From Candidatus Gastranaerophilales bacterium (GTDB lineage Bacteria; Cyanobacteriota; Vampirovibrionia; Gastranaerophilales; Gastranaerophilaceae): a stretch of 64,000 nucleotides of DNA. Made by a program: the position numbers and the translations under genes. The notes under the pieces were generated by a model. That model was not told the origin of the DNA and searched no databases. It saw only the letters and a program-made list of their open reading frames with translations. This document shows positions 9,366 through 40,787 of the stretch, piece after piece. The stretch covers positions 7,195 through 71,194 of the forward strand of contig CALUQL010000001.1 of assembly GCA_944322895.1 (NCBI GenBank), written 5' to 3'. Position 1 is the first letter of the stretch. Each line of letters opens with the position of its first letter.

Positions 9366-10460
9366 TTATTTATATGTATCATGAGAAAATATTTTAATAT
9401 TGTCTTTTGTTTGTTCTATTTTCATTTTTAATTTTTTACGAGCAAAATATCTAAGTTTATTATTGAAATATTGTTTTATAGTAACAGGTTCTAATTTTCG
9501 AAGATAGTCTGGCAACCAACAGTGCGGAGAATTGAATATAGGATTTTTCATCATTTTTACAAAATCATTATATTTATGATGATTTTGATAAAATACAGCA
9601 TAATCTTCTCTATTCATAATATAATCAGCATACCCGCCAATACAAGCGGAAAATGCAGCACGAGCATCAAGTTTTTCTGCTAATTTAACAAAAGCAGGCA
9701 TATCTCTATAATTATCAGCTGTTATTACAAACATAATTTCAAAATCATTAATTTTACCACTTCTTTTTAGTTCACTTATGTATTTGACATTTTTCATTAC
9801 AACATCAAACTTATCAGTTCTAAATATTCTTTTGTATGTTCTTCTAGTTGCTGCATGAAGTGAAATATGCACTTTAAAAAGTCTATCAAGTAAATTATGT
9901 TTTATTAAATTTTCCTCATTACATTTTATACCATTTGAAATAAAATCTACCTTTATATTTGGATTATTATTCAGAATAGCAGCGACCATTTTTTGAGTAT
10001 GTTTACTATCAAAGAACTCACCTCGGCAATTTACAAACATATATTTAGCTTTTGATGTAATAGGTAAAATATGTGTTTCTAATTTATCCTCCCATCTTTT
10101 ACACTCTTCTGGAGGTAAAGCTTTATATTCATCGCGACAAATAATGCATCGTTGTGCACAAGTATAATCATAACCAATATTTATATACTCTGGATATGGA
10201 GCAATTACTCCTTCAAAGAGAATTTTCTCAGACTTAATACCATTACAATTGTCATAGTTACAATATGAATATTTCTTAGCTAGAACATCTTTTCTGAATT
10301 CTTGAGCTTTCACTCCATTCCATATTTCATCAATATCATCTTCAAAAATATTTCCTATCATATTGAAATTAGAGAAACAAGGATTACAAAAAAAACATTT
10401 TCCATCATTATTCAATTCAAGACAATTCCAAGGATTCTGACAAAACAAATTATTATTCAT
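9366..10460 (-). CDS. Radical SAM enzyme, clade B (N-terminal SPASM-like module)
   Basis: N-terminus FCQNPWNCLELNNDGKCFFCNP..GNIFEDDIDEIWNG..YCNYDNC, then triad CAQRCIIC. Also HISLHAATRRTYKRI and a C-terminal CWLPDYLRKLEP. Confidence 0.85.
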   Translation of the reverse strand: MNNNLFCQNPWNCLELNNDGKCFFCNPCFSNFNMIGNIFEDDIDEIWNGVKAQEFRKDVLAKKYSYCNYDNCNGIKSEKILFEGVIAPYPEYINIGYDYTCAQRCIICRDEYKALPPEECKRWEDKLETHILPITSKAKYMFVNCRGEFFDSKHTQKMVAAILNNNPNIKVDFISNGIKCNEENLIKHNLLDRLFKVHISLHAATRRTYKRIFRTDKFDVVMKNVKYISELKRSGKINDFEIMFVITADNYRDMPAFVKLAEKLDARAAFSACIGGYADYIMNREDYAVFYQNHHKYNDFVKMMKNPIFNSPHCWLPDYLRKLEPVTIKQYFNNKLRYFARKKLKMKIEQTKDNIKIFSHDTYK

Positions 10461-10516
10461 AAATTTATACCCAATTTTAGATTGATTATATCATAATATA
10501 CCTTAATAAATGTTTT

Positions 10517-11500
10517 TTAGCTTCTTATAATATAATTCATAACCTCATCTGGTTCATCAAAATACAATTGATTCTTTTTGCTCAAATCAAAGAATAGATT
10601 AATTAGTTTCTTGTAATTTTGAGGAAGTTCTACTTTTTTCTCAAATAATTCAATAGCATATCTATGTTCTATATGTAGAGAAACTCGTTTTATGCCAATA
10701 TTTACCATTGTTTCTATGAATTTTGTAATTTCTTCTTCTGTATCGTTCATCCCTTTTAAGATAATAAATTTGACATTGATTTCAGGATTATCCTGTTTTG
10801 ATTCTTTTACATATCTTTTTAAGTTTTTTATAACATCATTATATTTGTCAACTTTTTTGATTTTTTTATAAGTTTCACGAGATCCTGAATCTAAGGCCAT
10901 ATTTAAAGAAGCAATTCTATTCTTTAAACATTTACTTATTATTGGCTGATAAATAATATTGTTAGTTGAAAAGTCTATTTTTGATACACCTTCTTTTAAA
11001 AATAATTTTACTAATGGTTCAAACTCCTTTAGAACAGATAGATCTCCACCATGAAACACAATTCTCAAATTATTACGGTTCAAAAGGTTATTTTTATATA
11101 GTCCCTTTATTATTGGTAGAGCGTCGTAGTATTCACTACGCACTTTCCCCTTCGTGATCTTACCTTTCGAATATGTTAGCCTGTCACAATAGAAACATCC
11201 GCAATTACATTGCGTCCAGTTATTTAAATATATAAGTTCAAATTGCTCTGAAAACTTATCATTTTCTCCCTTTTCTTTTTTATATATACAGTTTATACAA
11301 GGGATATTATCATAATTGCCATTTTCTAAGTCAGAAAAGAATTTTTTCTTTTTTTTCTTCAATAACTCAAAATTAAACTCTTTTATATTTCCATTATAAT
11401 TTTCAAAATACACAGGTCCAATATTTCCTAAAACACAACACGATCTTATTGTATCAGGGAAGAAAGTTAAGACGTTATTTAGTTCTGAACAATAATTCAT
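10517..11500 (-). CDS. Radical SAM enzyme, clade A3
   Basis: Triad CNCGCFYC. N-terminus MNYCSELNNVL..SCC..GP.Y..CINC. GGDLSVLKEFE replaces GGEP. Also LDSGSRETYKKIKKV and KFIILKGMNDTEEE. Confidence 0.85.
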   Translation of the reverse strand: MNYCSELNNVLTFFPDTIRSCCVLGNIGPVYFENYNGNIKEFNFELLKKKKKKFFSDLENGNYDNIPCINCIYKKEKGENDKFSEQFELIYLNNWTQCNCGCFYCDRLTYSKGKITKGKVRSEYYDALPIIKGLYKNNLLNRNNLRIVFHGGDLSVLKEFEPLVKLFLKEGVSKIDFSTNNIIYQPIISKCLKNRIASLNMALDSGSRETYKKIKKVDKYNDVIKNLKRYVKESKQDNPEINVKFIILKGMNDTEEEITKFIETMVNIGIKRVSLHIEHRYAIELFEKKVELPQNYKKLINLFFDLSKKNQLYFDEPDEVMNYIIRS

Positions 11501-11740
11501 TTTATTTTATCTGCCTTTTAATATACTTATTAAAACACTATAAACAATTTTATATTATCATGAAAAATAATAGATATTCAGATTTAACCATTTTACAAAT
11601 TTTATAATTAATATCTAAAACTAAAAAAGAATAAAAAGGTACTATATTTTTTATAAAACAAATAATTCCTACGTCCAATTCGTTTGTTTAATAATTAACT
11701 AAAATGAAGTTTATTGAACAAATAAAGAATATAGAATAAT

Positions 11741-12184
11741 CTAAATTGGTTTTAAGATTTTTAATTTATTAATTATTAAGCCTGTGATTTCATCCCAAGC
11801 TTTTTCACTTGGATGACCATCTTTTGGTATTCGATATTCTTGTTTATAAAACATTTCTGGTAGATTTTTCTTAATAATATATCGCTCTTTTCAATATATT
11901 TGACAGTTCATAATCTGATGTTAATTCTTTTTTATCTATAACCGTATGCATATGAACATCCCAATATAATAATTACAGGAGAAGTATATTGCAATCCAAC
12001 AGGATTTCTTTTTTCATAAATTCCGCAACTTTTCTTTCAAATGTATACGGATGATTATCCGATGAAAATTGATTATTCTCTACTGAAGAGTATAAATATT
12101 TATAAACAAAATAATTAAGAGACAATAAAGTAACTATGATTAATATAATATTTATAAGAACTATTATTATATATTTTTTCTCAT
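11741..12184 (-). pseudogene. Decayed copy of the membrane-anchored SGNH-like family
   Basis: On the minus strand, ATG AGA AAA AAT ATA TAA stops after 5 codons. In shifted frames I read a TM segment (KKYIIIIVLINIILIIVTLLSL), then SPVIIILGCSYAYGY, IDKKELTSDYELSNILKRAIY and a C-terminal DGHPSEKAWDEITGLIINKL. These match the intact paralogues, e.g. ILIFGCSFAHGS and DKAHPSEKAWDLL. At least 4 frame changes are needed, 3 of them at A-runs. About half the gene (the middle) is missing. Confidence 0.7.
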
Positions 12185-12232
12185 ATTAATTACTCTTTAT
12201 GTTAAACTATATATTAAATAAGGATATTTAAA

Positions 12233-13165
12233 ATGCAAATTAAAAATATTTTGATTAAATATATAGTATTAATTTTCTTTTCTGTTCTTATACTTATTCT
12301 ATTAAATTATGCCATATATCTTTTTTTGTGTTTCAAGTATAAGTTGAATTTTCAAGAGTTTTGCCCTTTTTACAGAACTAATTTTTCAGTAAGAACGTTT
12401 GTAAAAAAAGAAAAATTTGATCATTATAATACGAAAAATAATAAAGATAAAAGCATTATAATTTTTGGCTGTTCATTCGCAAAAGGACTTGGACTCAATG
12501 AAAATGAAAATTTTGCTGCACTGTTGGCTGATTACACCAAAAGACCTGTTTATAACAGAGCTGTGAATGGTGGTGGTGTTCAATACGCTCAAATGCAGGT
12601 TGAAAGCAATTATATTGATGACATAATAAAAAATACAGATACTGTTATATATGTATTATCATCATTAAAAGATTCTGCCAGATTAAAAGTATATCCTGGA
12701 AAGGTATTCCAACCTTGTTGGATTTTAAACTCATCTATATATCCAAGATATATTTTAAAAGATGACAAGTTATACTTTTATAGATCTCCAATACCTTTCA
12801 TAGAAGGATCTATATTATATCGAATGATAGAAAAGGTCTTAAAGGATAGAGGAAATTCTCGCGAAATAAAAGAAAATGAAATAAACGATTTGTATATAGC
12901 ATTATCTTATTTGGATAAAAGTCTAAAGACTATTAATCCAAAAGTCAAACTATATGTACTACTTTATCACGGTTCTATAAATGAAATAGTTGAGGTCACT
13001 TCAGGTAAAAACCCTTTTGACAACAGTGATATAAAACTTGTACCAATTTCTTCATTTATAGATATAAATTTAAATGATACTAAATATAGAGCAGAAAATT
13101 CTCACCCTACATCAACTGCTTGGAAAGTTATAGTACCGGAATTTGCAAAGAAATTTAATCTATGA
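12233..13165 (+). CDS. Membrane-anchored SGNH/GDSL-like hydrolase or acyltransferase (paralogue)
   Basis: N-terminal TM helix, IIIFGCSFAKGLGL, YNRAVNGGGVQY and C-terminal ENSHPTSTAW. The stop overlaps the next start (ATGA). Confidence 0.55.
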   Translation: MQIKNILIKYIVLIFFSVLILILLNYAIYLFLCFKYKLNFQEFCPFYRTNFSVRTFVKKEKFDHYNTKNNKDKSIIIFGCSFAKGLGLNENENFAALLADYTKRPVYNRAVNGGGVQYAQMQVESNYIDDIIKNTDTVIYVLSSLKDSARLKVYPGKVFQPCWILNSSIYPRYILKDDKLYFYRSPIPFIEGSILYRMIEKVLKDRGNSREIKENEINDLYIALSYLDKSLKTINPKVKLYVLLYHGSINEIVEVTSGKNPFDNSDIKLVPISSFIDINLNDTKYRAENSHPTSTAWKVIVPEFAKKFNL

Positions 13166-14091
13166 AACAAAAAATAAAAGTAATTGTATATAATATAATA
13201 TTATTTTGTGTACTTGCATTTATATTAAATACTGTTTTATATGTGATTCTAGTCTCAAAAGATATATATAATTATGATATTAATTTTAAACATATATGCA
13301 ACAACTATAGAATGTTTATTACACGTGATATATCTTTGCAAGATACATATAATAGACTGATTAAATCTAATAATTATAGGGACATAGAGAATAAAAATAG
13401 CAAAAAAAGAGCAATAGTTCTATTTGGTTGTTCTTTTACATATGGTACAGGTTTGACTCCGGAACAAACTATATCTCATAAACTAGGAGTCAAGACAGGG
13501 CGACCAATATATAATAGAGCTCAAGGCGGATTTGGTATTCAACATATGTTGTATCAATTGTCAAATAAGGAGTTTTACAAAATTGTACCAAATCCAGAGT
13601 ATGTATTATATATTTTTGCTTATCCGCATTATTATAGATTATACCTACCAGAAAGCATATATTCTCCAATCTGCTATACTGTTTTTTACAAAAGTGATAA
13701 GAAGGAAATACTAAAATTAAAAAATAGAAACCATATTTTTGACAAAGTAATTTTTCTTTATCCTATTATTGACAGATTTATCTTTAACAACATTATAAAA
13801 TATGATTTTGTCAAAAAAGAAGCTAACAATTTTTTATTAAAACATTTACTTAAATCTAAACAAGAGTTACAAAAACATTGGGAAAATACAAAATTTATTA
13901 TTTTCTTTTACGATCAACCGTTTTTTTCTGATCAATTATATGAAAAGTTAAGAGAAGAAAATTTTATATTAATTACACCTGAAGATTACAAAATTAATTC
14001 TAGTTTAAAACAATATCAATTAAGTGACAGACATCCAAATGAATTATTTTGGGATTTAGTATTGACAGATATTCTTTCATATATAGAATGA
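13162..14091 (+). CDS. Membrane-anchored SGNH/GDSL-like hydrolase or acyltransferase (paralogue)
   Basis: N-terminal TM helix, IVLFGCSFTYGTGL, YNRAQGGFGIQH and C-terminal SDRHPNELFW. Confidence 0.55.
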   Translation: MKQKIKVIVYNIILFCVLAFILNTVLYVILVSKDIYNYDINFKHICNNYRMFITRDISLQDTYNRLIKSNNYRDIENKNSKKRAIVLFGCSFTYGTGLTPEQTISHKLGVKTGRPIYNRAQGGFGIQHMLYQLSNKEFYKIVPNPEYVLYIFAYPHYYRLYLPESIYSPICYTVFYKSDKKEILKLKNRNHIFDKVIFLYPIIDRFIFNNIIKYDFVKKEANNFLLKHLLKSKQELQKHWENTKFIIFFYDQPFFSDQLYEKLREENFILITPEDYKINSSLKQYQLSDRHPNELFWDLVLTDILSYIE

Positions 14092-14097
14092 AAATAG

Positions 14098-16085: not shown

Positions 16086-17120
16086 ATGCATAAAACAGTC
16101 TGTCTTCGTCCTTTTTCTGAAATTGAAATTACTGAGAATGGTGATATATACACTTGTTGTCCCAGTTATTTAAAAAATTATACAATTGGGAATTTATTTG
16201 AAGTTTCTTCTTTTGATGAAATATGGTATTCCCAAAAAGCTGAAGATTTACGAAAGAATATAATTGAAGGAAAATATGATTTTTGTAATAAAGAAATTTG
16301 CAATATTAAATCTGAAGCAGAAAATACAACAGTATCAGCCACCCCGGACTATCCTACATTGGTACGTTTTGCGTATGATAAACAATGTAATCTCAAATGT
16401 TGTATTTGTAGAGATAAACTAATAAATTCAGATAATAATGTCATTTCTAAATTTGATTCAATTATTGATTCAATGCTTTTACCTTTATTAAAAAATGCCC
16501 AAATAATGTCAATAACTTCAGCAGGAGAAATTACAGCGAGCCAACATTCACAAAATCTACTTAAAAAGGCAGCAGAATTATATCCAAATTTAAAATTTGA
16601 AATATTAACTAATGCTTTCCTATTTAATGAGGAATTTTGTACACGCCTTGGAATAATTAATAAAATCGATAGGGTAATTGTATCCATGCACGGTATAAAT
16701 AAGTCCACATATGAGAGAATTATGCGTGGTGCAAAATTTGAAATAGTAAAAAAGAATTTGGATTGGTTATTCTCACTAAGAAAACAACATAAAATAAATG
16801 AAGTAAGTATTGTCTTTGTTGTATCATCAATGAATTACAAAGAAATTCCTAATTTTGTTTCCTATTGTTTAGAAAACCAAGCAGTTCCTATTATATGGGA
16901 ATATAGACCTTTTAACAATGTAGAGATGGCAAAAAAATATTCTGAACATGCTGTTTGGGAAAAACAGAATCCGAATTATAATGATTTTATCAAAGTTATT
17001 TCTTATGTTGAAGAAAATTATAAAAATAGTTGCAGAATGCCTGAATTATTTAAAAATTTAGAGCCCATAAGTAAATTTCAAGAGTATATGAATAAAATTA
17101 AATTTTTATTAAAGTTGTAA
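16086..17120 (+). CDS. Radical SAM enzyme, clade B (N-terminal SPASM-like module)
   Basis: N-terminus VCLRPFSEIEITENGDIYTCCP..GNLFEVSSFDEIW..FCNKEIC, then triad CNLKCCIC. Also VSMHGINKSTYERI and a C-terminal CRMPELFKNLEP. GGAG lies upstream. Confidence 0.85.
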   Translation: MHKTVCLRPFSEIEITENGDIYTCCPSYLKNYTIGNLFEVSSFDEIWYSQKAEDLRKNIIEGKYDFCNKEICNIKSEAENTTVSATPDYPTLVRFAYDKQCNLKCCICRDKLINSDNNVISKFDSIIDSMLLPLLKNAQIMSITSAGEITASQHSQNLLKKAAELYPNLKFEILTNAFLFNEEFCTRLGIINKIDRVIVSMHGINKSTYERIMRGAKFEIVKKNLDWLFSLRKQHKINEVSIVFVVSSMNYKEIPNFVSYCLENQAVPIIWEYRPFNNVEMAKKYSEHAVWEKQNPNYNDFIKVISYVEENYKNSCRMPELFKNLEPISKFQEYMNKIKFLLKL

Positions 17121-17121
17121 T

Positions 17122-18153
17122 ATGAAAAAATTAAAAGTTATATTTATAAATATTTTATTCATTTTATTGGCATTTTTTATTCTTGATGTCATTGCATATT
17201 TTATGTTAATGACTGAAAACAAAGATATTTATACCAATATATATAAAAATGCAAATTATTTTAAGTTTTACCTTTCGGCTTTTAACATCATTAAAGCAGA
17301 CTTTGATAATCCAATAAATACAATCAGTAGAATTAGAGTTGCTGTTCAAAAGGACGAAGATTTTGTATATATACGAAAACAAGACAAACATAAAGATTTC
17401 TTTTCTAAAAATTCAATAGCAAATTCTCCAATATTAATTTTTGGATGTTCTTTTGCACATGGTTCTTTATTAAAGCCAGAGCAAACACTTTCATATAAAC
17501 TAGCAAAAGAAACTCATCGCAATATATACAATTTTGCATTACCCGGCGGTGGTTTACAACACATGTTATATATTTTGGATTCAGAACTTGTATTTCACAC
17601 CTTAGAATCTGATAATGCTCCTGAATATGCTTTCTTTATATATATACCGAACCACCTTTTGAGATTAGATAAACTTGTTTTTGATATTATGCAAATGGAT
17701 TTAAATTATACACTTGAATTAAGAGAATCAAACCTTGTTGAAAATCCCTTATATCAGAATATTTTTATAAGAAAAATTTTGTCAACATTTATAGCAAAAA
17801 AATTACTTATAAAAGAACAACCTTCAACAGTTGAGCTAAAATATAAAAGATTTGCTTTGCTTAATGAAATCTTACTTCAGAGTCGAGAAAGATTAAAAAA
17901 ACAATATAAGAACATTAAATTTTGTATAATAAGATACAGAATTGAAGATGATAAAGATGGCGACGAAGCCCTTGAATTTCCTTATATGTGGGAAATATTA
18001 GAAAAAGAAGGTTTTACTATAGTCGATACATCAAAACTTATAGGTCGAAAGTATAAAAATAACTCAGAAGACACAACAATGGACAAAGCACATCCATCAG
18101 AAAAAGCTTGGGATTTACTCTTGCAGCCATTAATAGATTATTTACATTTATAA
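17122..18153 (+). CDS. Membrane-anchored SGNH/GDSL-like hydrolase or acyltransferase (paralogue)
   Basis: N-terminal TM helix, ILIFGCSFAHGSLL, YNFALPGGGLQH and C-terminal DKAHPSEKAW. It starts 1 nt after the clade-B rSAM stop. Confidence 0.55.
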   Translation: MKKLKVIFINILFILLAFFILDVIAYFMLMTENKDIYTNIYKNANYFKFYLSAFNIIKADFDNPINTISRIRVAVQKDEDFVYIRKQDKHKDFFSKNSIANSPILIFGCSFAHGSLLKPEQTLSYKLAKETHRNIYNFALPGGGLQHMLYILDSELVFHTLESDNAPEYAFFIYIPNHLLRLDKLVFDIMQMDLNYTLELRESNLVENPLYQNIFIRKILSTFIAKKLLIKEQPSTVELKYKRFALLNEILLQSRERLKKQYKNIKFCIIRYRIEDDKDGDEALEFPYMWEILEKEGFTIVDTSKLIGRKYKNNSEDTTMDKAHPSEKAWDLLLQPLIDYLHL

Positions 18154-19712: not shown

Positions 19713-20741
19713 ATGGTTTACTGTTCAAAGCCGTTTGAAGAATTTGAAATAGATGTTGATGGTAATTGTTACTGTTGCTGTCGTTGGTGGAATAATGCAT
19801 ATTGCTTGGGTAATATTTTTGAACAATCAATTGATGAAATTTGGAATGGTAATGCAGCTCAAGAATTAAGAAATAGCATCTTGGATGGTAGTTATAAATA
19901 CTGCAATACAAAAATTTGTTTAAAAAGTTATAATGAGAATATAAATCACACCCCTATTTTAGATTTTCCTACAGAAATAAGCCTTTGTTATGACTATACT
20001 TGCACTGCACGTTGTGTCTTCTGCAACGATGAAATAAAAAAAATGTCAAAAGATGAGTGTGAAAAATGGAAATATATTGAAGAAACAAAACTTATTCCCT
20101 TATTTCAAAATGCTAAGTTTATTAGATTAAACATGACTGGTGAACTTTTTGTAAGTGAACATTCAAAGAATTTTGTAAAAAACATAGTTAAAAGATATCC
20201 TGATATAAAATTCGAAATTGTCTCTAATGGAATTTATGCTACAAAAGAAAATATTCAGGATCTAGGGATTGAAGATAAAATTGAGTCTATAAAGTTTTCT
20301 TTACCGTCTATGAATAAAAGAACATACAACAAACTTGTAAGAAATGGCAATTTAAACAGTGTATTAGCAAACTTAGATTATATATCAGATCTAAAAAGAA
20401 GTAAAAGAATTCACGATTTTAGACTTAACTTCGTAATTTGTTCTACAAATTATAAAGAAATACCTAGTTATATATACAGAGCCGAATCTTTGGGGGCAAT
20501 TGTTGATTTTATTATGTTAAGTAAAAATGATTCTTCTACTGCTTTTCTAAAAAATTACGAAAAATATAATGTTTTATCTTCAAATCACCCAGATTACAAT
20601 TCTTTTATTAGCATTATTAATTCAAATAAAATAAAAAACTCAAATAATGCTAATATTAATAAGGAACTTTACAAATTAAAAAAAGTTAGCTTAAAAAAGA
20701 GATTATTAAATACAATAAAATTTTATATTTTAAATATATAA
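19713..20741 (+). CDS. Radical SAM enzyme, clade B (N-terminal SPASM-like module)
   Basis: The ORF opens at 19653, but paralogue alignment favours the internal Met: MVYCSKPFEEFEIDVDGNCYCCC..GNIFEQSIDEIWNG..YCNTKIC. Triad CTARCVFC. Also FSLPSMNKRTYNKL. Confidence 0.8.
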   Translation: MVYCSKPFEEFEIDVDGNCYCCCRWWNNAYCLGNIFEQSIDEIWNGNAAQELRNSILDGSYKYCNTKICLKSYNENINHTPILDFPTEISLCYDYTCTARCVFCNDEIKKMSKDECEKWKYIEETKLIPLFQNAKFIRLNMTGELFVSEHSKNFVKNIVKRYPDIKFEIVSNGIYATKENIQDLGIEDKIESIKFSLPSMNKRTYNKLVRNGNLNSVLANLDYISDLKRSKRIHDFRLNFVICSTNYKEIPSYIYRAESLGAIVDFIMLSKNDSSTAFLKNYEKYNVLSSNHPDYNSFISIINSNKIKNSNNANINKELYKLKKVSLKKRLLNTIKFYILNI

Positions 20742-33659: not shown

Positions 33660-34667
33660 TTGCAAAAAACAGATAGTATATGCACATTCCCTTTTGAATC
33701 AGCACAAATAAGTATGCAAGGTGATGTATATGTTTGTTGTCCGCCGTGGTGTAATTCTTATTCTTTGGGCAATATATATCAAGAGTCTTTCGACAAAATT
33801 TGGAATGGAGAAAGAGCTAAAGAATTTAGAAAACAATTTATAACCGGAAATTATAATATCTGTAATTTAGATTTATGTGTAAAAGACTGTACACATAATG
33901 TTATTGTTGCAGAAATAGTTGAAAAACCGAAAACATTTATTTTCTGCTATGATGCAACTTGCAATGTTAAATGTATATTTTGTAGAAGCTGTCATCAAAA
34001 ACAAGATTTAACATATTTTAACGAAAATATGGATAATATAATAACAGACATGTTGGAAAACGCAGAAAATGTAGTACTTTCTGGTGTTGGTGAAGCACTT
34101 GCAAGTCCTCATTCAAGGAAATTAATAAAAAAAATTTCTGAAAGATTTCCAAAAGTAAAATTTTCCTTAATTTCAAATGGTATACTTTGTGACAAAGAAA
34201 ATTTAGAGGAACTTGGTATCATTGATAGACTCTTATCAATAACAGTATCATTACATGCTGTCAAACAAAAAACTTACGAAAAATTGGTTGTTGGTGGAAA
34301 TTACAAAAAAGTAATGGAAAATCTTGAATTTTTATCTAAACTAAAAAAAACAGGGAAATTGGATAAATTTATATTAAACTTTGTAGTTAATGCATATAAT
34401 TATAAAGAAATGGTTCCATATATAGAAATGGCAGAAAAACTGGGTGCAACAGTTGGATTTCTTGAACTTTTAGAATTAGAGACAAACAAAGATATATATA
34501 AAAAGTTGAATATTTTCGATGAGAAACATCCAAAATATAACGATTTTGTAAAAGTATTAAGAAACCCAATATTTAACTCAGGAGTTTGTACAATAAATGA
34601 TTGTATGAAAAACCTAAAACCTATTAGTTTTATTAAATCTTTGAAATATAAATTTTCTAATCTATAA
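33660..34667 (+). CDS. Radical SAM enzyme, clade B (N-terminal SPASM-like module)
   Basis: Probable TTG start with GGAGG 9 nt upstream. N-terminus ICTFPFESAQISMQGDVYVCCPP..GNIYQESFDKIWNGERAKEFRKQF..ICNLDLC. Triad CNVKCIFC. Also VSLHAVKQKTYEKL and a C-terminal CTINDCMKNLKP. Confidence 0.85.
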   Translation: MQKTDSICTFPFESAQISMQGDVYVCCPPWCNSYSLGNIYQESFDKIWNGERAKEFRKQFITGNYNICNLDLCVKDCTHNVIVAEIVEKPKTFIFCYDATCNVKCIFCRSCHQKQDLTYFNENMDNIITDMLENAENVVLSGVGEALASPHSRKLIKKISERFPKVKFSLISNGILCDKENLEELGIIDRLLSITVSLHAVKQKTYEKLVVGGNYKKVMENLEFLSKLKKTGKLDKFILNFVVNAYNYKEMVPYIEMAEKLGATVGFLELLELETNKDIYKKLNIFDEKHPKYNDFVKVLRNPIFNSGVCTINDCMKNLKPISFIKSLKYKFSNL

Positions 34668-34698: not shown

Positions 34699-35682
34699 AT
34701 GGGATATTTATCTTGCGAATTTGTTGAAAATGGAATGTGTTTCATAAGAGATGCTGCAGTATTATGTAGCTATTCAATGTGTATGAAATTTGAAGCTATA
34801 AAAATTATAGAAGATTATAAAGGTGAGCTATTTGATTGGGATAAAATAAGACAAATAAAGCAAGAATATAGAGATAGATTTGCAAAAGGAGATATTCCTA
34901 AAATATGTGAAGGTTGTCCTAGTCTTCAGGTAAAAGATTGGGATGGTTCTATGCAATTAAAATATATCCTTATAAATCACTGGGAGAATTGCCAATTAGA
35001 TTGCATTTATTGTCATACACATGACCAAAAAAAATTTTTAAATTCACTAAAACCGTGGAAAATCTTGCCAGTACTGCAAGATGCATTAAAACAGAATATG
35101 CTAAGCTATAATGGGAATGTTAATATTACAGGTGGAGAACCAACAATACTAAAAGAATTTCCAGATTTGATGAAATTCTTTTTAGAGAAAACAAATATCT
35201 TTATTATGATAAATTCAGCTGCTGTTGACTATTCAAAATGGATAAGAAAAGGACTTGAAAAAAAGAGAGCTGCAGTCACTATTTCACTTGATTCTGGAAC
35301 AAGAGAAACATATAAACTTATAAAAAATGTTGATTATTTTAAAAAAGTAATAAACAATATTAAAAAATATAAAAAAGGTTTAGATCCAATTGCTGCTAGT
35401 TTAATTGGAATCAAATATATTTTTATTCCAGGATACAACGATACATTAGAAGAAGTAACTGCTTGGCTAAAAATTGTTGAAGATTTAGGACTAACGAATA
35501 TCCAATTAGAATTAGAACATCATTGGTATGAAAAGAATAAATATTGTCCTGAAAATGTAAAAGAATATATTAAAATCATAGTAGATTATGCACATGAACA
35601 TAAGTGCAACCTTTCATATAGAGAAATTTTAACTACATGTGGCTATACAGAATGTATTAGATATATAGATAATGGTAGATAA
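34699..35682 (+). CDS. Radical SAM enzyme, clade A2
   Basis: Triad CQLDCIYC. Also ITGGEPTILKE, ISLDSGTRETYKLIKNV and KYIFIPGYNDTLEE. N-terminal Cys residues SC..C..LC..CEGC. Confidence 0.85.
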   Translation: MGYLSCEFVENGMCFIRDAAVLCSYSMCMKFEAIKIIEDYKGELFDWDKIRQIKQEYRDRFAKGDIPKICEGCPSLQVKDWDGSMQLKYILINHWENCQLDCIYCHTHDQKKFLNSLKPWKILPVLQDALKQNMLSYNGNVNITGGEPTILKEFPDLMKFFLEKTNIFIMINSAAVDYSKWIRKGLEKKRAAVTISLDSGTRETYKLIKNVDYFKKVINNIKKYKKGLDPIAASLIGIKYIFIPGYNDTLEEVTAWLKIVEDLGLTNIQLELEHHWYEKNKYCPENVKEYIKIIVDYAHEHKCNLSYREILTTCGYTECIRYIDNGR

Positions 35683-36725
35683 TGTCAAAAAATAAGAACA
35701 TATATTGTCCAAACCCATATATTTTAGCTGAAATAATGCCTTATGGAGAGGTATATCCTTGTTCTTGCGGTTGGATTAGAGGATATTCTTTCGGAAATAT
35801 TTTTGAACAAACTTTCGATGAAATATGGAATGGAGAACGTGCAAAAGAATTTCGAAGAAAACTTTATAATAATGATTTTTCATTATGTCCGGGATGTCAA
35901 AATTTGGAAATTTTGCAAGAGACTAAAGATGATGAACCAAGGTTAATTTCATCTCCCCCTGAAAGAATATTATTAGGCTTAGATGAATTTTGCGATGTAA
36001 AATGTATATTTTGTCGTGGAGAAAATTATAAAGTAAATACAAATCTAATACCTAAAGACAAAGAAGATAAACTAATCGAAATATTAACACCTTGGCTTGA
36101 ACACGCGAAATATGTCAAAACAAATGCAGTGGGTGAAGTATTTGCTAGTAAAATTTCAAGAGATTTAATAAAAGAAATAGCAGAAAGATTTCCAAACATT
36201 AAATTTGAAATTATAACAAATGGCATACAATGTACAAAAGCGAATATAGAAAACCTTAACTTAACGGATAAGATTTCTATGATGACGGTATCATTACATG
36301 CATACAGTGAAAATATATATAACAAGATTGTTAAAGGTGGAAATTATAAAAAAGTAATAGAAAATATTATGTATTTATCCTCCTTAAAAAAGAGCGGCAA
36401 AATAGAACGTTTTGAGCTTCATTTTACTGTTACAAGTATCAATTATAGAGAAATACCGCAAATTATAAAATTTTGTAGACAAATTGATGCAAAGGTAAGA
36501 TTTCTGGGGTTAGATTGTTCTAGAGATCTAGAAAAACTTTATAATAAAATTAATATTCAAAATGAAAATCATCCTGATTATAACAAATTAGTAAAGCTTG
36601 TACATTCAAATGATTTTATAACAGCTAAAGATGTGATAGTTCAAGGTTATGACTATTTTATAAGTCTTAAACAAAATTCACTGTATAATAAATTATTAAA
36701 CTTATTTTTCAAGAAAACAAATTAA
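35682..36725 (+). CDS. Radical SAM enzyme, clade B (N-terminal SPASM-like module)
   Basis: The start overlaps the preceding stop (TAATG). N-terminus YCPNPYILAEIMPYGEVYPCSC..GNIFEQTFDEIWNGERAKEFRRK..LCPGC. Triad CDVKCIFC. Also VSLHAYSENIYNKI. Confidence 0.85.
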   Translation: MSKNKNIYCPNPYILAEIMPYGEVYPCSCGWIRGYSFGNIFEQTFDEIWNGERAKEFRRKLYNNDFSLCPGCQNLEILQETKDDEPRLISSPPERILLGLDEFCDVKCIFCRGENYKVNTNLIPKDKEDKLIEILTPWLEHAKYVKTNAVGEVFASKISRDLIKEIAERFPNIKFEIITNGIQCTKANIENLNLTDKISMMTVSLHAYSENIYNKIVKGGNYKKVIENIMYLSSLKKSGKIERFELHFTVTSINYREIPQIIKFCRQIDAKVRFLGLDCSRDLEKLYNKINIQNENHPDYNKLVKLVHSNDFITAKDVIVQGYDYFISLKQNSLYNKLLNLFFKKTN

Positions 36726-37693
36726 AATTTGTTCAGTTTATCTACTAAAACGGGTAAAATAAGATTCCAATAATATTCATTTGGATGAAAACCACTATCA
36801 ATATTGTATTTTTCTATATTTTCTGGTGTATTCAACATAACATCAATTCCTGTAATTTGTGGAATGTCAATTACGGAATATTTTTCCTTTAAAGCAATAT
36901 CGAAGTTATCACTTGAAAATTTTACAATAATAAATTTTGAGTTAGGATACAACTCCTTAATTTTAGATTGAATAGTCGATAAATATAATAAAAAATAATC
37001 TTTAGCTTTATTTTCTAGAATTTTTGAGAATCTATTTTTTATGCAAAAACGTATTTCATCATGTACAAGTGCATAGAACCAAGTATTTTGTATTAACAAA
37101 TTTTTTTGAAGTAATAGTTTACCATTTCTTTTTTCATAAAAAACAAATTGCGGTTCTTTCATTGTAGTTGTACATTTCATGAACATTCTTCGCAAATGAT
37201 CTGGATTATAAAAATATATAAAATATTCAGGTTCCTCTTTTATATATTCTGTTATATCGAATCTTTGCAAAATATATAATATTTGGTTTAATCCACCAGC
37301 AGGAACAGCTAGATTGTATACTTTGCATCCAAGTTTTTCAGACAATTTATACGAAATGGTTTGATGGTCTTTAAGATTATAACCGTATGCCATCGAACAA
37401 CCAAAAACAACAATACTTTTATAAGGTATATTTTTCGATGATGAAAAAATTTGAAACGTTTTAAATTTCAATGGATGAGAATCAAGAAAACGTCTTTCTA
37501 TATCATTTTTATCGCAACAGTAATTATACAACCAAAAATTTGAATCTTTACAAGGGTATCGTTTTAATAATATTTTGTAACTCAAAAACTCTATTATAAA
37601 TAAAAAAATAATTAAAAAAGATATATTAATTAAAATAATATTTAATAATTTTCTTGGTGATTTATTCTTGATGAAGTCCATAACCATCAACAT
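36722..37693 (-). CDS. Membrane-anchored SGNH/GDSL-like hydrolase or acyltransferase (paralogue)
   Basis: N-terminal TM helix, IVVFGCSMAYGYNL, YNLAVPAGGLNQ and C-terminal DSGFHPNEYYW. The 5' end overlaps the upstream rSAM gene by 32 nt (less if an internal Met is used). Confidence 0.55.
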   Translation of the reverse strand: MLMVMDFIKNKSPRKLLNIILINISFLIIFLFIIEFLSYKILLKRYPCKDSNFWLYNYCCDKNDIERRFLDSHPLKFKTFQIFSSSKNIPYKSIVVFGCSMAYGYNLKDHQTISYKLSEKLGCKVYNLAVPAGGLNQILYILQRFDITEYIKEEPEYFIYFYNPDHLRRMFMKCTTTMKEPQFVFYEKRNGKLLLQKNLLIQNTWFYALVHDEIRFCIKNRFSKILENKAKDYFLLYLSTIQSKIKELYPNSKFIIVKFSSDNFDIALKEKYSVIDIPQITGIDVMLNTPENIEKYNIDSGFHPNEYYWNLILPVLVDKLNKF

Positions 37694-38651: not shown

Positions 38652-38764
38652 TTAACATCTCCTTTTAAGAAAATTTTATCATGATTATATTTTATTCGAA
38701 AATATTTTACATTATTGATTTATCAATTAACTAACTATATTCTTTTATACAGGAGAATATTCAG

Positions 38765-39730
38765 ATGAAAAGACGTGATTTTATATGTGGACTTTCTTGT
38801 TTATTAGCAGGTTTTTGCCTTGGTAATTTTGTAGATTTAAAAAATAAAAAAAATAAAATTAATTATAATAAGCAAAAGGAAAGAGGTATTGAATTATGTA
38901 GTATAGGAATTGCCATATCATCCCATTGTAATCTAAATTGTAAAGGCTGTGATGTATATGCACCACTTGCAAAAAAAGAATTTGTTACTTATGAACAATT
39001 TGTAAAAGATATGAACAAATTAAAAAAAATTGCTCCAGATCGAGAATATAACACTTTTTTTATAGGAGGTGAACCTTTATTAAATCCAGAACTTACTAAA
39101 ATAATTAACAAAACCAAAGAATTATTTCCAAACGCACAAAAATCAATCCTTACAAATGGCATTTTGATAGAGAAAATGGAAGAAAACTTTTTCAAAGCAA
39201 TTAAGGAATCAAATGTTTCTTTTGGAATTACTAAATACCCAATCAATATTAATTTTGAAAATATAGAAAGAATTCTGCAGAAATATGGTATTGAAATACT
39301 TTATGATCCTGTAAAATCAGACAAAATTTATGATGTAAATACAAAGCAAGCGTTATATAATAATCCTGACAATAGAAATGGCTTTGTATGGAGCCAAAAC
39401 ATATTGGATTTATCAGGAAATCAGAATTGGGTAGAGAAACGTTTTACATGTCCACATCGAGGAATTGTGACTTATGCCAGAGGCAATATTTACTATTGTT
39501 ATATTCATGCATATATAAATGCTTTTATTAACTATTTTAAGGTAAATATCCCTATTACAAAAGATGACTATATAAAAATTGCAGATGTAAAAAGCATAGA
39601 AGAAATCGATGACTTTTTATCAAAACCAAAACCATTGTGTAGATTTTGCAAGCAATGTCACAATACTTGTTATGGTGATGAACCTATAGAATGGAATTTT
39701 TCTGAAAGAAAAATAACAGAATGGACATAA
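38765..39730 (+). CDS. Radical SAM enzyme with Tat-signal-like N-terminus and C-terminal Cys-rich (twitch/SPASM-like) region
   Basis: AGGAG lies upstream. N-terminus MKRRDFICGLSCLLAGFCLG. Triad CNLNCKGC at about residue 55. Also FIGGEPLLNPE and a C-terminal C..C..C..CRFCKQCHNTC. The architecture differs from clades A and B. Confidence 0.8.
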   Translation: MKRRDFICGLSCLLAGFCLGNFVDLKNKKNKINYNKQKERGIELCSIGIAISSHCNLNCKGCDVYAPLAKKEFVTYEQFVKDMNKLKKIAPDREYNTFFIGGEPLLNPELTKIINKTKELFPNAQKSILTNGILIEKMEENFFKAIKESNVSFGITKYPININFENIERILQKYGIEILYDPVKSDKIYDVNTKQALYNNPDNRNGFVWSQNILDLSGNQNWVEKRFTCPHRGIVTYARGNIYYCYIHAYINAFINYFKVNIPITKDDYIKIADVKSIEEIDDFLSKPKPLCRFCKQCHNTCYGDEPIEWNFSERKITEWT

Positions 39731-39761
39731 TTTTGCCATAATATATTACTTATAATAAAAT

Positions 39762-40787
39762 TTGTATATGAGTAAATTTTGTAAACATCCGTTCCATACA
39801 ATACAAATACAAAATACAGGAGATGTATATTGTTGCTGTTGTTATTGGACAAATTTTTATTCTTTCGGGAATATTTTTGAAAAGTCCTTTGATGAAATCT
39901 GGAATGGAGAAAAAGCAAAAGAATTTAGAAAACAATTTATCGAAAATAATTACAAATACTGCAATTTAGAAGTTTGTGATCCTTTTTTACATGAATTCGA
40001 ACCTGATTATACAGCAGATTATCCAAAGAAAGTAGAATTTAGTTATGATAGAAGATGTAATGTACGCTGCATTTTTTGTAGAAATGAAAAAAATAAAGAA
40101 GAAGAAGAATACAACAGACAAAAAGAAAAAAGAATAGAAGAAAATTTTGACAAAATTTTTACTCCAATTATTCAGAAAGCAGAGGTAGTTGAACTAAATT
40201 CAGCCGGAGAGTTATTTGCAAGTAAACATTCTATTGAAATTGTAAAAAAAATTATAAAAATTAATCTAAATATAGAATTCAACATAATTTCGAATGGAAT
40301 TTTATTTACAAAAGAAAATATAGACGCAATTGGTTTAGATAAGCATCTTAACACCGTTATAATTTCAATGCACGCAACAACGGAAAAAACATATAATAAA
40401 CTTGTTGAAAATGGCAATTTTAAAGCCTTAATGAAAAATGTAAAATATCTCTCAGAACTGAAAAAAGAAGGTTCTATAAGAAATCTACAATTAAATTTTG
40501 TTGTAACAGCAATTAATTATAAAGAAATGAAAGATTTTGTAAGACTAGCAAGAGAACTAGACGCAAAAGCATTTTTCATAAACTATCATAGACAAATTGA
40601 TTCTGACGAACTTATGAACAGATTAGATATTTCACTTACATCGCATCCACAATACAATAAATTAGTAAAAATGTTAAAAAATCCAATATTCAAGGAAGAA
40701 TGCTGTGTTCTTAATGATTATCTGAAAGAATTAAAACCAAACAAAAAAAAGTTAACAAATATATTAAAAGACTTATTTAAAAAATGA
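39762..40787 (+). CDS. Radical SAM enzyme, clade B (N-terminal SPASM-like module)
   Basis: N-terminus FCKHPFHTIQIQNTGDVYCCCC..GNIFEKSFDEIWNGEKAKEFRKQF..YCNLEVC. Triad CNVRCIFC. Also ISMHATTEKTYNKL and a C-terminal CCVLNDYLKELKP. Confidence 0.85.
   Translation: MYMSKFCKHPFHTIQIQNTGDVYCCCCYWTNFYSFGNIFEKSFDEIWNGEKAKEFRKQFIENNYKYCNLEVCDPFLHEFEPDYTADYPKKVEFSYDRRCNVRCIFCRNEKNKEEEEYNRQKEKRIEENFDKIFTPIIQKAEVVELNSAGELFASKHSIEIVKKIIKINLNIEFNIISNGILFTKENIDAIGLDKHLNTVIISMHATTEKTYNKLVENGNFKALMKNVKYLSELKKEGSIRNLQLNFVVTAINYKEMKDFVRLARELDAKAFFINYHRQIDSDELMNRLDISLTSHPQYNKLVKMLKNPIFKEECCVLNDYLKELKPNKKKLTNILKDLFKK

What the first reader, a model, noticed from the sequence alone, without database searches (positions are those of the whole stretch)
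9366..40787. Clade B: a SPASM/twitch-like Cys-rich module placed N-terminal to the radical-SAM core (apparent domain-order permutation)
Six ORFs open with a strongly conserved block of about 70 aa and only then reach the rSAM triad: 9366-10460(-), 16086-17120(+), 19713-20741(+), 33660-34667(+), 35682-36725(+) and 39762-40787(+). An example is FCKHPFHTIQIQNTGDVYCCCC..YSFGNIFEKSFDEIWNGEKAKEFRKQF..YCNLEVC. The pattern is C-x2-P-(F/W/Y)..(I/L)-x3-G-x-(V/I/C)-(Y/F)-x-C(C) .. GN(I/L)(F/Y)..(F/I)DEIWNG. That is the signature normally found at the start of the C-terminal SPASM/twitch auxiliary Fe-S domain of anSME/AlbA/PqqE-type enzymes. Here it precedes the SAM-cluster motif. Four of the six also keep a lone Cys near the C-terminus in C-x-(L/M/I)-(P/N)-(D/E)-x3-(K/N/E)-L-(E/K)-P. 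That Cys could complete an auxiliary cluster across the termini. The core also deviates from canon: S(L/M)HA..TY replaces the usual SxDG, and GE(L/I/V)(F/T)xS replaces GGEP.
Basis: partly seen in the sequence, partly recalled or inferred. Interest (0 to 1): 0.8.

Follow-up and report, generated by a model that had tools for sequence, protein, structure and literature searches.

The report
Radical SAM enzymes with N-terminal twitch domain
Six paralogous radical-SAM enzymes in a gut Melainabacteria (Gastranaerophilales) surface-sugar gene island carry their auxiliary iron-sulfur "twitch" domain in front of the catalytic core instead of behind it; the reversed layout is real, but it is widespread in public sequence data, already catalogued, and has never been studied at the bench.

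Summary
All six ORFs exist. Each opens with a 65-70 aa Cys block that scores above Pfam's SPASM threshold at residues ~4-72. The CX3CX2C radical-SAM motif follows at residues ~97-111.

The block is a single-cluster twitch domain. It has C-x12-G-x4-C, then two Cys after a helix. Its best sequence and predicted-fold match in the PDB is the C-terminal twitch domain of BtrN. Against BtrN and canonical-order relatives the two halves align in swapped order, so the proteins look circularly permuted.

It is not rare or undescribed:
- NCBIfam NF033640 ("twitch domain-containing radical SAM protein") has the same order. Our proteins score far below its cutoff.
- A profile of the block finds 827 protein clusters at E<=1e-10. 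Almost every full-length top hit has twitch before core.
- Members occur in Cyanobacteria, anammox Planctomycetota, Patescibacteria and Desulfobacteraceae.

The C-terminal Cys is subclade-specific (26% family-wide), and four invariant N-terminal Cys already suffice for one cluster.

Polysaccharide gene context in three phyla, plus methyltransferase fusions, point to glycan modification. No member has been characterised.

The parts
9366..10460 (-). Clade B gene 1 (364 aa): N-terminal twitch domain followed by radical-SAM core
   Evidence: ORF. Pfam SPASM at residues 7-72 (37.4 bits) and Radical_SAM at 101-253.
10245..10442 (-). Twitch segment of gene 1 (C7...G20-x4-C25...C67-x4-C72)
10137..10160 (-). 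CX3CX2C SAM-cluster motif of gene 1 (CAQRCIIC, aa 101-108)
16086..17120 (+). Clade B gene 2 (344 aa)
   Evidence: Pfam SPASM at 6-68 (38.2 bits) and Radical_SAM at 101-241. NF033640 scores 56 bits.
16101..16301 (+). Twitch segment of gene 2 (C6...C24/C25...C67, C72)
16386..16409 (+). CX3CX2C motif of gene 2 (CNLKCCIC)
19713..20741 (+). Clade B gene 3 (342 aa from the ATG at 19713; the mechanical ORF starts at 19653)
   Evidence: Pfam SPASM at 4-65 (43.7 bits).
19722..19919 (+). Twitch segment of gene 3 (C4...C22/C23...C64, C69)
20001..20024 (+). CX3CX2C motif of gene 3 (CTARCVFC)
33660..34667 (+). Clade B gene 4 (335 aa, TTG start)
   Evidence: Pfam SPASM at 8-69 (50.5 bits) and Radical_SAM at 100-243 (45.4 bits). 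The same 335-aa gene call appears on public contigs.
33681..33890 (+). Twitch segment of gene 4 (C8...C26/C27...C68, C73, plus extra C77)
33960..33983 (+). CX3CX2C motif of gene 4 (CNVKCIFC)
35682..36725 (+). Clade B gene 5 (347 aa). Its start overlaps the stop of the upstream clade A gene by 1 nt.
   Evidence: Pfam SPASM at 9-73 (56.2 bits).
35706..35897 (+). Twitch segment of gene 5 (C9...C27...C69-x2-C72, a CPGC variant)
35991..36014 (+). CX3CX2C motif of gene 5 (CDVKCIFC)
39762..40787 (+). Clade B gene 6 (341 aa; public gene calls start at the ATG at 39768). This is the protein modelled with AlphaFold2.
   Evidence: Pfam SPASM at 7-68 (51.2 bits), Radical_SAM at 97-262 (45.8 bits), NF033640 at 61 bits. 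Full-length model: pLDDT 89.8, pTM 0.86.
39780..39977 (+). Twitch segment of gene 6 (C7...C24-C27...C67, C72)
   Evidence: The model of this domain alone finds BtrN as its best PDB match.
40056..40079 (+). CX3CX2C motif of gene 6 (CNVRCIFC)

Best explanation
The six genes encode two-cluster radical-SAM enzymes. Their auxiliary [4Fe-4S] site sits in a twitch domain (a truncated SPASM domain) encoded before the partial TIM-barrel core rather than after it. That makes them look like natural circular permutants of BtrN-type twitch enzymes.

Shown here:
- the identity of the domain;
- its position in the protein;
- the swapped-order alignment to canonical enzymes;
- the conservation of four candidate ligand Cys: C7 before the hairpin, C25 after G-x4, and C67 and C72 after the helix;
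- the wide distribution of the layout.

Inferred:
- The core binds the SAM cluster through CX3CX2C and produces the 5'-deoxyadenosyl radical, which abstracts a hydrogen atom from a carbohydrate substrate.
- The fully ligated twitch cluster then accepts or relays an electron, as has been suggested for BtrN.
- The most likely outcome is oxidation of a sugar CH-OH to a ketone. Epimerisation is an alternative, with the nearly invariant extra Cys (C26) as a possible hydrogen donor.
- The substrate class is a sugar nucleotide or a growing surface polysaccharide.
- The many paralogs (6 clade B and 17 clade A in one island) diversify the glycan.
For: Domain identity: Pfam SPASM scores above its gathering score at residues 4-73 in all six proteins. 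The N-terminal block maps to C-terminal positions (~250-390) of many curated SPASM models, including anSME, DynA, NirJ, TIGR04311 and TIGR04133.

PDB match by sequence: a family profile finds BtrN as the best hit (E 1e-13). Query residues 4-86 align to BtrN 166-246 (the twitch domain) and query 92-212 to BtrN 8-132.

PDB match by fold: the AlphaFold2 model of the N-domain alone (pLDDT 83) has BtrN 4m7s as its best hit (TM 0.63, rmsd 3.4 A). Eleven of its 12 hits are SPASM/twitch enzymes. The full-length model (pLDDT 89.8) shows a hairpin at 13-23, helices at 43-60 and then a (beta/alpha)6 core. This matches the published twitch layout (PMC6231123).

Permutation: BLASTP against canonical-order relatives aligns query 7-70 to residues 337-401 (38% identity) and query 84-289 to residues 67-269.

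Cys conservation: C7, C25, C67, C72, C99, C103 and C106 are 99-100% conserved in 80 diverse representatives.

Distribution.

Glycan role:
- The window island has GT9, GDP-mannose 4,6-dehydratase, DegT aminotransferase, GT2, SDR and predicted SGNH-like proteins (SGNH assignment by motif inspection).
- Homologs in Gloeothece PCC 7424 and Ca. Brocadia lie inside GT2/GT4 clusters with methyltransferases. The PCC 7424 cluster also holds Wzm/Wzt (Wzt_C) ABC-transporter genes and a sulfotransferase.
- Some homologs are fused to class-I or FkbM methyltransferases.
- BtrN, the closest solved relative, acts on an aminocyclitol.
Against: - No member has been purified, so cluster content is inferred only.
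I could not measure whether the four Cys converge, or the distance to the SAM cluster.
- The sequence-order-dependent Foldseek search with the whole model returns NifB, viperin, DesII and MoaA cores, not BtrN, in its top 50.
- The substrate assignment rests only on gene neighbourhood and fusions.
- The chemistry (oxidation versus epimerisation or something else) is an analogy, not a result.
Confidence: 0.6

Rival explanations
1. The proteins are RiPP (peptide) maturases, like most studied SPASM/twitch enzymes, and act on small precursor peptides encoded nearby.
For: Most characterised SPASM/twitch enzymes modify peptides (PMC6231123 and PMC10114670, listed). NCBIfam gives weak hits to sactipeptide and other peptide maturases.
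Against: No RiPP recognition-element (RRE) domain was detected. The four large intergenic gaps I inspected hold only two 97-98 aa TPR-like ORFs and a gene remnant, with no Cys- or Gly-rich precursor-like peptides. The context is glycan genes in three phyla. All hits to peptide maturases are far below their cutoffs.
Confidence: 0.1
2. One reading: the C-terminal Cys reaches back to the N-terminal domain and supplies a ligand, or helps form a second auxiliary cluster.
For: In a circular permutant the two termini should lie close to each other. The Cys is kept in 33 of 38 close homologs. The close subclade also carries extra, partly conserved Cys at positions 76, 94, 109 and 182.
Against: Only 21 of 80 diverse family representatives have this Cys; Val or Ile usually replaces it. 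Two of the six window paralogs lack it. Four N-domain Cys conserved at 99-100% already reproduce BtrN's full ligation pattern. There is no CX2CX5CX3C motif for a second cluster.
Confidence: 0.1
3. The N-terminal Cys block is a structural zinc ribbon or knuckle rather than an Fe-S twitch domain.
For: Four Cys in two pairs could bind Zn. Metal identity cannot be read from sequence.
Against: The block scores above threshold on Pfam SPASM in all six proteins. It matches the BtrN twitch domain by sequence profile and by predicted fold, and 11 of 12 Foldseek hits are SPASM/twitch enzymes with no zinc fingers among them. The diagnostic C-x12-G-x4-C motif is invariant.
Confidence: 0.05
4. The proteins are antiviral viperin-like (pVip) radical-SAM enzymes expanded as a defence island.
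For: Foldseek ranks viperins high for the core. One clade B protein hits a PADLOC pVip model at 43.5 bits. NCBIfam viperin_w_prok gives 38-51 bits.
Against: The scores are far below the cutoff (180 bits) and cover only the generic core. Five of six clade B proteins give no pVip hit. None of the pVip or viperin matches extends into the N-terminal domain, and to my knowledge viperins carry no auxiliary-cluster domain. The neighbourhood is glycan biosynthesis. A restriction-modification (RM)-like gene (49294-51354) lies outside the island.
Confidence: 0.03

Closest known systems
BtrN (2-deoxy-scyllo-inosamine dehydrogenase, butirosin pathway; PDB 4M7S/4M7T), the founding twitch-domain radical-SAM enzyme
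   Same: It is the best PDB match by sequence profile for both halves, and the best fold match for the N-domain model. It shares the twitch layout: one Cys before the hairpin, G-x4-C after it, and two Cys after the helix, giving a fully ligated single auxiliary cluster. Its substrate is carbohydrate-like, which fits the glycan context here.
   Different: The domain order is reversed: the twitch domain is at 166-246 in BtrN and at 4-86 here. Here the last two Cys are spaced C-x4-C, whereas BtrN has C-x2-C. The model predicts six core strands; from memory BtrN has an abridged barrel. Identity is low (about 22-24% in the twitch domain). Substrate-binding residues were not compared. These proteins are not BtrN orthologs.
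NCBIfam NF033640 N_Twi_rSAM, 'twitch domain-containing radical SAM protein' (subfamily model)
   Same: It has the same architecture. Model positions ~2-70 are the twitch domain; they match the C-terminal twitch of canonical-order proteins L075 and L076. Positions ~100-330 are the radical-SAM core. Four of the six window proteins align to it end to end (for example residues 4-349 to model positions 2-370).
   Different: Scores are 21-61 bits against a curated cutoff of 170. None of 80 diverse relatives reaches E<=1e-30 on this or any other NCBIfam model. This is therefore a sister family with no model of its own. I found no paper describing NF033640 or any characterised member.
Canonical-order radical SAM-then-twitch/SPASM relatives (L075 Myxococcales 410 aa, L076 Desulfobulbales 520 aa; NCBIfam TIGR04317 and TIGR04311-like cores)
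   Same: The twitch motif is strikingly similar (GN(I/L)..SFDEIWNG.(K/A)A, 37-38% identity) and the core is homologous at 20-28% identity. They share the same best-scoring NCBIfam core models.
   Different: In these relatives the twitch domain follows the core after a ~65-aa bridge. In clade B it precedes the core, and the bridge-like segment becomes the C-terminal tail.
Other enzymes with C-terminal SPASM domains (anSME, PqqE, SuiB, CteB)
   Same: They share the first half of the SPASM motif (CX9-15GX4C) and the hairpin-helix fold.
   Different: Those enzymes carry a second cluster motif (CX2CX5CX3C...C) that is absent here. Their domain is C-terminal. anSME, PqqE, SuiB and CteB all act on peptides or proteins.

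Membership tests
Twitch domain (truncated SPASM; definition in PMC6231123 and the Goldman/Drennan BtrN work it cites) | CX9-15GX4C motif at the start of the domain | tested here: met
   C7-x12-G20-x4-C25 is invariant in the six paralogs. In 80 diverse relatives C7 and C25 are kept in 80/80 and G20 in 77/80.
Twitch domain (truncated SPASM; definition in PMC6231123 and the Goldman/Drennan BtrN work it cites) | Beta-hairpin followed by helix alpha2', with further Cys ligands after the helix | tested here: met
   AlphaFold2 models show strands at 13-17 and 21-23 and helices at 43-47 and 50-60, followed by C67 and C72. The best PDB fold match is the BtrN twitch domain (TM 0.63). This rests on predicted, not experimental, structure.
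Twitch domain (truncated SPASM; definition in PMC6231123 and the Goldman/Drennan BtrN work it cites) | Only one auxiliary cluster: no CX2CX5CX3C...C segment | tested here: met
   The Cys census finds only C7, C25, C26, C67 and C72 conserved before the core.
Twitch domain (truncated SPASM; definition in PMC6231123 and the Goldman/Drennan BtrN work it cites) | Position as a C-terminal extension of the radical-SAM core | tested here: not met
   The domain lies at residues 4-73 and CX3CX2C at 97-111. Reviews define SPASM/twitch as C-terminal extensions (PMC9012708).
Twitch domain (truncated SPASM; definition in PMC6231123 and the Goldman/Drennan BtrN work it cites) | Binds an Fe-S cluster | not testable with these tools
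   This needs anaerobic purification, Fe/S analysis, and EPR or Mossbauer spectroscopy.
Pfam PF13186 SPASM | Score at or above the gathering threshold (21.5 bits) | tested here: met
   37.4, 38.2, 43.7, 50.5, 56.2 and 51.2 bits.
Radical SAM superfamily (PF04055) | CX3CX2C motif, glycine-rich SAM-binding motif and partial TIM-barrel core | tested here: met
   CX3CX2C is present in all six. The xGE motif is kept. The model shows a (beta/alpha)6 core, and Foldseek E is 1e-9 to 1e-7 against NifB, viperin, DesII and MoaA. The Pfam score exceeds the gathering score (29.5) in 3 of 6 proteins; the others score 29.4, 24.5 and 18.4.
NCBIfam NF033640 N_Twi_rSAM | N-terminal twitch then radical-SAM core, aligned over the full model | tested here: met
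   Four of the six align across nearly the whole model (protein residues 3-7 to 320-349 against model positions 2-4 to 340-370 of 398); for the other two only the twitch stretch (model 2-62) is reported as the best stretch.
NCBIfam NF033640 N_Twi_rSAM | Whole-protein score at or above the curated cutoff (170 bits) | tested here: not met
   30.0, 56.3, 21.2, 52.1, 51.4 and 61.3 bits. None of 80 relatives reaches E<=1e-30.
BtrN (DOIA dehydrogenase) | Orthology: same domain order, substrate-binding residues and butirosin-type gene context | tested here: not met
   The order is reversed. There is no aminoglycoside cluster in the window. Substrate-binding residues were not compared.
Prokaryotic viperin (pVip; NF038283 / PADLOC PDLC02903) | Score at or above the family cutoff (180 bits) | tested here: not met
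   38-51 bits on NF038283. PADLOC pVip hits 1 of 6 clade B proteins, on the core only.

The most novel reading that the evidence does not exclude
The N-terminal-twitch radical-SAM proteins are a large and biochemically untouched class of carbohydrate-modifying radical enzymes. They act on O-antigen-like or capsular polysaccharides, possibly at the chain terminus together with the methyltransferases they are fused to or sit beside.

In gut Gastranaerophilales they would have expanded, together with a second clade (clade A) whose N-terminal 4-Cys domain may also be a cryptic twitch domain, into arrays of about 25 genes. These arrays would generate combinatorial surface-glycan diversity by radical chemistry. 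The permuted layout would show that the twitch module is an autonomous, position-independent electron-transfer cassette.
Probability: 0.25. Interest if true: 0.75.

Novelty: new member of a known kind. Interest (0 to 1): 0.45.

Why it matters
Reviews define SPASM and twitch domains as C-terminal extensions of the radical-SAM core, and every solved SPASM/twitch match found here (BtrN, anSME, PqqE, SuiB, CteB, TigE, SkfB) has that order. A large natural family with the domain in front offers three things.

1. It is a ready-made circular-permutation experiment on how the auxiliary cluster is positioned relative to the active site.
2. It warns annotation and genome-mining pipelines that look for SPASM after the core, such as RiPP mining tools, that they may miss or misread these proteins.
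3. Its conserved placement in polysaccharide gene clusters of cyanobacteria, anammox bacteria and gut Melainabacteria points to unexplored radical chemistry on bacterial surface glycans. The Melainabacteria are a poorly understood group of the animal gut that devote an unusual share of one locus to these enzymes.

The novelty is limited. The layout is already in NCBIfam, and the Pfam domain order has been visible in public annotations for years.

Tried and rejected
- Foldseek with the whole model did not show the permutation. It aligns in sequence order and returned only core matches (NifB, viperin, DesII, MoaA). I therefore modelled the N-domain alone.
- I wanted Cys-Cys and cluster-cluster distances from the AlphaFold2 model, but coordinates are not exposed.
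- Five literature searches found no paper on this layout. The terms were 'N-terminal twitch', 'N-terminal SPASM', 'circular permutation' or 'permuted' with SPASM, and 'twitch domain-containing radical SAM'. Searches for Gastranaerophilales or Melainabacteria with 'radical SAM' found nothing on these arrays.
- I tested whether relatives are true NF033640 members. None is, so I could not examine real members of that model.
- I looked for RiPP precursor peptides in the four large intergenic gaps and found none convincing.
- I tested a defence (pVip) reading with PADLOC and rejected it.
- I tested whether clade A's N-terminal Cys domain is also a twitch domain. hhalign gives 29% probability. There is no Pfam or PDB hit. 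The HMM scores 8.4 bits against the BtrN twitch, a score that 2 of 500 shuffles reach. This is suggestive and unresolved.
- I tested whether 38765-39730 has a canonical C-terminal twitch domain. There is only a faint hairpin-like match (1.5 bits).

Full report
**What is in the window**

The window is 27% G+C. It matches metagenome-assembled genomes of Candidatus Gastranaerophilales, the non-photosynthetic gut Melainabacteria (Vampirovibrionia). Orthologs of the first clade B gene are 72-88% identical in seven such genomes, and identical proteins occur on several gut metagenome contigs.

Between about 5950 and 44200 lies an island with 25 radical-SAM genes:
- 17 'clade A' genes
- the 6 'clade B' genes of the finding
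- one different radical-SAM gene (38765-39730)
- one B12-binding radical-SAM gene (42817-44199)

Interspersed with and flanking these are:
- a GT9 heptosyltransferase-like gene
- GDP-mannose 4,6-dehydratase
- a ketopantoate-reductase-like oxidoreductase
- a DegT-type aminotransferase
- a GT2 glycosyltransferase
- an SDR
- two large polytopic membrane proteins, one with TPR repeats
- four membrane-anchored paralogs with SGNH-like motifs (my reading of the motifs; Pfam finds nothing)

**Check of the observation**

All six ORFs are at the stated coordinates. The alignment confirms the quoted pattern. Invariant residues are C7, P10, G20, C25, G36, N37, D44, I46, W47, A52, R56 and C67. C72 is present in 5 of 6; the sixth has CPGC. 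C101-x3-C105-x2-C108 follows.

Pfam places SPASM (PF13186) at residues 4-73 in all six with 37-56 bits (gathering score 21.5). Radical_SAM (PF04055) comes after it. A local HMM of the block finds exactly these six in the window.

**What the N-terminal block is**

The published definition (PMC6231123) says SPASM domains carry CX9-15GX4C-gap-CX2CX5CX3C-gap-C and bind two clusters. A twitch domain is the truncated version with one cluster. It is built from a beta-hairpin and helix alpha2'. In BtrN it has one Cys before the hairpin, one after it and two after the helix, giving a fully ligated [4Fe-4S].

Clade B has C7-x12-G20-x4-C25, then C67-x4-C72, and no CX2CX5CX3C segment. It is therefore a twitch domain, not a full SPASM domain.

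Sequence evidence. A profile of 38 family members searched against all PDB sequences finds BtrN first (E 1e-13). The two halves match in swapped order: query 4-86 to BtrN 166-246 (the twitch domain), and query 92-212 to BtrN 8-132 (the core). Many curated canonical families show the same pattern. The N-terminal block maps to profile positions ~250-390 of anSME, DynA, NirJ, TIGR04311 and TIGR04133, while the core maps to positions ~1-190.

Predicted-structure evidence. The AlphaFold2 model of the 39762 protein is confident (pLDDT 89.8, pTM 0.86). It shows a hairpin at 13-23, helices at 43-60, a less confident linker, and then a (beta/alpha)6 core plus a helical C-terminal tail. A model of residues 1-85 alone (pLDDT 83) was searched against the PDB. 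It returns BtrN first (4m7s: TM 0.63, rmsd 3.4 A, probability 1.00), then anSME, PqqE, TigE, SuiB and CteB. Eleven of the 12 hits are SPASM/twitch enzymes. The E-values are weak (0.04) because the domain is small.

**Is it a permutation?**

Two relatives with canonical order turned up in the genome scan: a Myxococcales protein (L075, 410 aa) and a Desulfobulbales protein (L076, 520 aa). BLASTP gives two significant segments in swapped order. Clade B residues 7-70 align to L075 337-401 (38% identity, including SFDEIWNGEKA). Clade B residues 84-289 align to L075 67-269 (28% identity). L076 gives the same picture.

By eye, the ~50-aa C-terminal tail of clade B looks like the bridge that leads from the core into the twitch domain in the canonical proteins; I did not test this. 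The relation is that of a circular permutation.

Tandem fusions also exist in metagenomes, for example P0123 (twitch-core-twitch-core-methyltransferase). Proteins like these are the kind of intermediate from which either order could arise by truncation. That last step is conjecture.

**How common the layout is, and whether it is known**

NCBIfam already has a model named for this layout, NF033640 N_Twi_rSAM, 'twitch domain-containing radical SAM protein'. Four of the six window proteins align to it end to end, but they score only 21-61 bits against a cutoff of 170. The model's positions 5-70 match the C-terminal twitch domains of L075 and L076, which confirms that its own twitch domain is N-terminal.

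A profile of the six N-terminal blocks was searched against 1.84 billion representative proteins.
- 10,985 hits at E<=1e-3
- 827 hits at E<=1e-10
- 150 best hits listed

Of the best 150, all but two of those longer than about 200 aa have CX3CX2C 5-90 residues downstream of the block. The rest are mostly short fragments. Some carry extra N-terminal domains or are fusions.

In 71 loci from GTDB species representatives, 171 of 175 detected domains are N-terminal. A second branch was seeded with the 362-aa L073 protein. It has 958 homologs, and each of the 120 listed has SPASM first in its precomputed Pfam string (15 have no Radical_SAM hit on record). It includes Gloeothece citriformis PCC 7424, Candidatus Brocadia and Scalindua, Patescibacteria and Desulfobacteraceae. 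These are annotated merely as 'radical SAM' or 'SPASM domain-containing' proteins.

None of 80 diverse representatives reaches E<=1e-30 on any NCBIfam model. The family is catalogued only at the level of architecture. Five literature searches found no paper on an N-terminal twitch or SPASM domain, and reviews still call these domains C-terminal extensions (PMC9012708). The layout is therefore common and known to curators, but I found no experimental study of it.

Across 80 diverse relatives, C7, C25, C67, C72 and the SAM-cluster triad are 99-100% conserved, and C26 is 94% conserved.

| Set | C-terminal Cys present |
|---|---|
| Window paralogs | 4 of 6 |
| Close Gastranaerophilales subclade | 33 of 38 |
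| Diverse family representatives | 21 of 80 (usually Val or Ile instead) |

The C-terminal Cys is therefore not a general ligand, and four N-domain Cys already reproduce BtrN's ligation. Whether it lies near the site could not be measured, because coordinates are not exposed.

The core 'deviations' are ordinary:
- The Gly of the GE motif is kept in 79 of 80, followed by E or D, and then Pro in 29 of 80.
- The His of S-x-H-A is H in 41, D in 22, P in 10 and N in 6 of 80.
- BtrN itself has YGEP.

**Likely function**

Established: the proteins have a radical-SAM core with an intact CX3CX2C motif and a twitch domain with four conserved Cys.

Inferred from the family: SAM is cleaved to the 5'-deoxyadenosyl radical, which abstracts a hydrogen atom from the substrate. 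The fully ligated auxiliary cluster handles an electron, as suggested for BtrN and anSME.

The substrate class is inferred from context.
- The window island is full of sugar-nucleotide and glycosyltransferase genes.
- The PCC 7424 homolog lies between GT2/GT4 glycosyltransferases, a Wzm/Wzt ABC exporter with a Wzt_C domain, two methyltransferases and a sulfotransferase.
- The Brocadia homolog is embedded in GT2/GT4 and methyltransferase genes.
- Several relatives are fused to class-I or FkbM-type methyltransferases.
- In Gastranaerophilales, 93 of 158 clade B genes have a clade A gene within 400 bp. One pair in the window overlaps by one base (34699-35682 and 35682-36725), which suggests they are expressed and act together.

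My best guess is radical oxidation or epimerisation of a sugar in a surface polysaccharide pathway. From memory, the twitch enzyme NeoN is a precedent for radical sugar epimerisation with a Cys hydrogen donor, which could give C26 a role. The exact chemistry is open. I consider RiPP maturation, a zinc site, a composite cluster with the C-terminal Cys, and a viperin-like defence role less likely, for the reasons given under the rival explanations.

**Verdict**

This is an unmodelled sister family within an already catalogued architecture (N-terminal twitch plus radical-SAM core). It is widespread and uncharacterised.

Its value lies in being a natural circular permutant of a well-studied cofactor domain, and in its consistent link to polysaccharide loci. 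The extreme paralog array in Gastranaerophilales, together with clade A's unrecognised N-terminal 4-Cys domain, may be the more unusual feature of this window.

Noticed in passing
window 5953-42816 (17 genes, e.g. 7180-8211, 18596-19561, 31100-32533): Clade A is a set of 17 paralogous radical-SAM genes (24-33% identical to the first). Each has an N-terminal ~90-aa domain with invariant C6, C24 and C74 and near-invariant C71 (C-x17-C...C-x2-C) before CX3CX2C. Neither Pfam nor any NCBIfam model recognises this domain. The Cys spacing resembles the BtrN twitch ligands as I recall them (C169, C188, C232, C235). Similarity to twitch is weak: hhalign gives 29% probability, and the HMM scores 8.4 bits against the BtrN twitch, which 2 of 500 shuffles reach. 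It may be a second, more diverged N-terminal twitch family.
   Followed up: partly
window 5953-44199; also L008-L074: There are 25 radical-SAM genes within about 38 kb. Similar arrays, with several clade A and clade B genes per 20 kb, recur in most Gastranaerophilales genomes fetched. I found no paper describing this expansion.
   Followed up: partly
window 12233-13165, 13162-14091, 17122-18153 (+), 36722-37693 (-); remnant near 11744-11854 (-): Four paralogs of 309-343 aa have an N-terminal membrane helix and SGNH-like motifs (FGCSF...G.GL, and D/S-x-HP-S/N-E..W near the C-terminus). Pfam gives no hit. A 37-aa ORF in the 11501-12232 gap (KDGHPSEKAWDEI...) looks like a decayed C-terminal fragment of a fifth copy. 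They may be glycan O-acyl transferases or esterases.
   Followed up: partly
window 18169-18471 (-) and about 22750-23046 (-): Two paralogous small ORFs of 97-100 aa lie in the larger intergenic gaps of the island. Their sequence looks like TPR repeats. Function unknown.
   Followed up: no
window 38765-39730 (+): This is a different radical-SAM protein. It has a hydrophobic N-terminus, CX3CX2C at about residue 54, and a Cys-rich C-terminus (CPHRG...G-x4-C...CRFCKQCHNTC) that looks like a canonical-order twitch/SPASM tail. Pfam does not call it, and the clade B twitch HMM gives only 1.5 bits.
   Followed up: partly
window 14098-16065 (+) and 29514-31079 (+): These are large polytopic membrane proteins (655 and 521 aa) with no Pfam family. 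The first ends in TPR repeats. They may be GT-C-type glycosyltransferases or polymerases of the glycan pathway.
   Followed up: no
window 42817-44199 (-) and 59192-60808 (+): Two B12-binding radical-SAM genes. The first resembles HpnJ, BchE and P-methyltransferases (up to 195 bits, below cutoffs) and sits at the edge of the island next to DegT and GT2 genes.
   Followed up: no
P0123, P0121, P0148, P0208, P0209, P0212 (metagenome representatives): Multidomain relatives exist: twitch-core-twitch-core-methyltransferase (1188 aa), twitch-spacer-twitch-core (571 aa), and twitch-core fused to class-I or FkbM methyltransferases. They are possible evolutionary intermediates of the permutation and give functional hints.
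   Followed up: partly
L022, L026, L040, L042, L065, L066, L070: These contigs are labelled 'uncultured Muribaculaceae' and carry clade A and clade B genes. Their G+C is 27-36%, like Gastranaerophilales. They are probably mis-binned rather than horizontally transferred.
   Followed up: partly
window 49294-52766 (+): An HSDR_N plus N6_Mtase/Eco57I-type restriction-modification gene (686 aa) is followed by a 470-aa gene of unknown function. Both lie just outside the glycan island.
   Followed up: no
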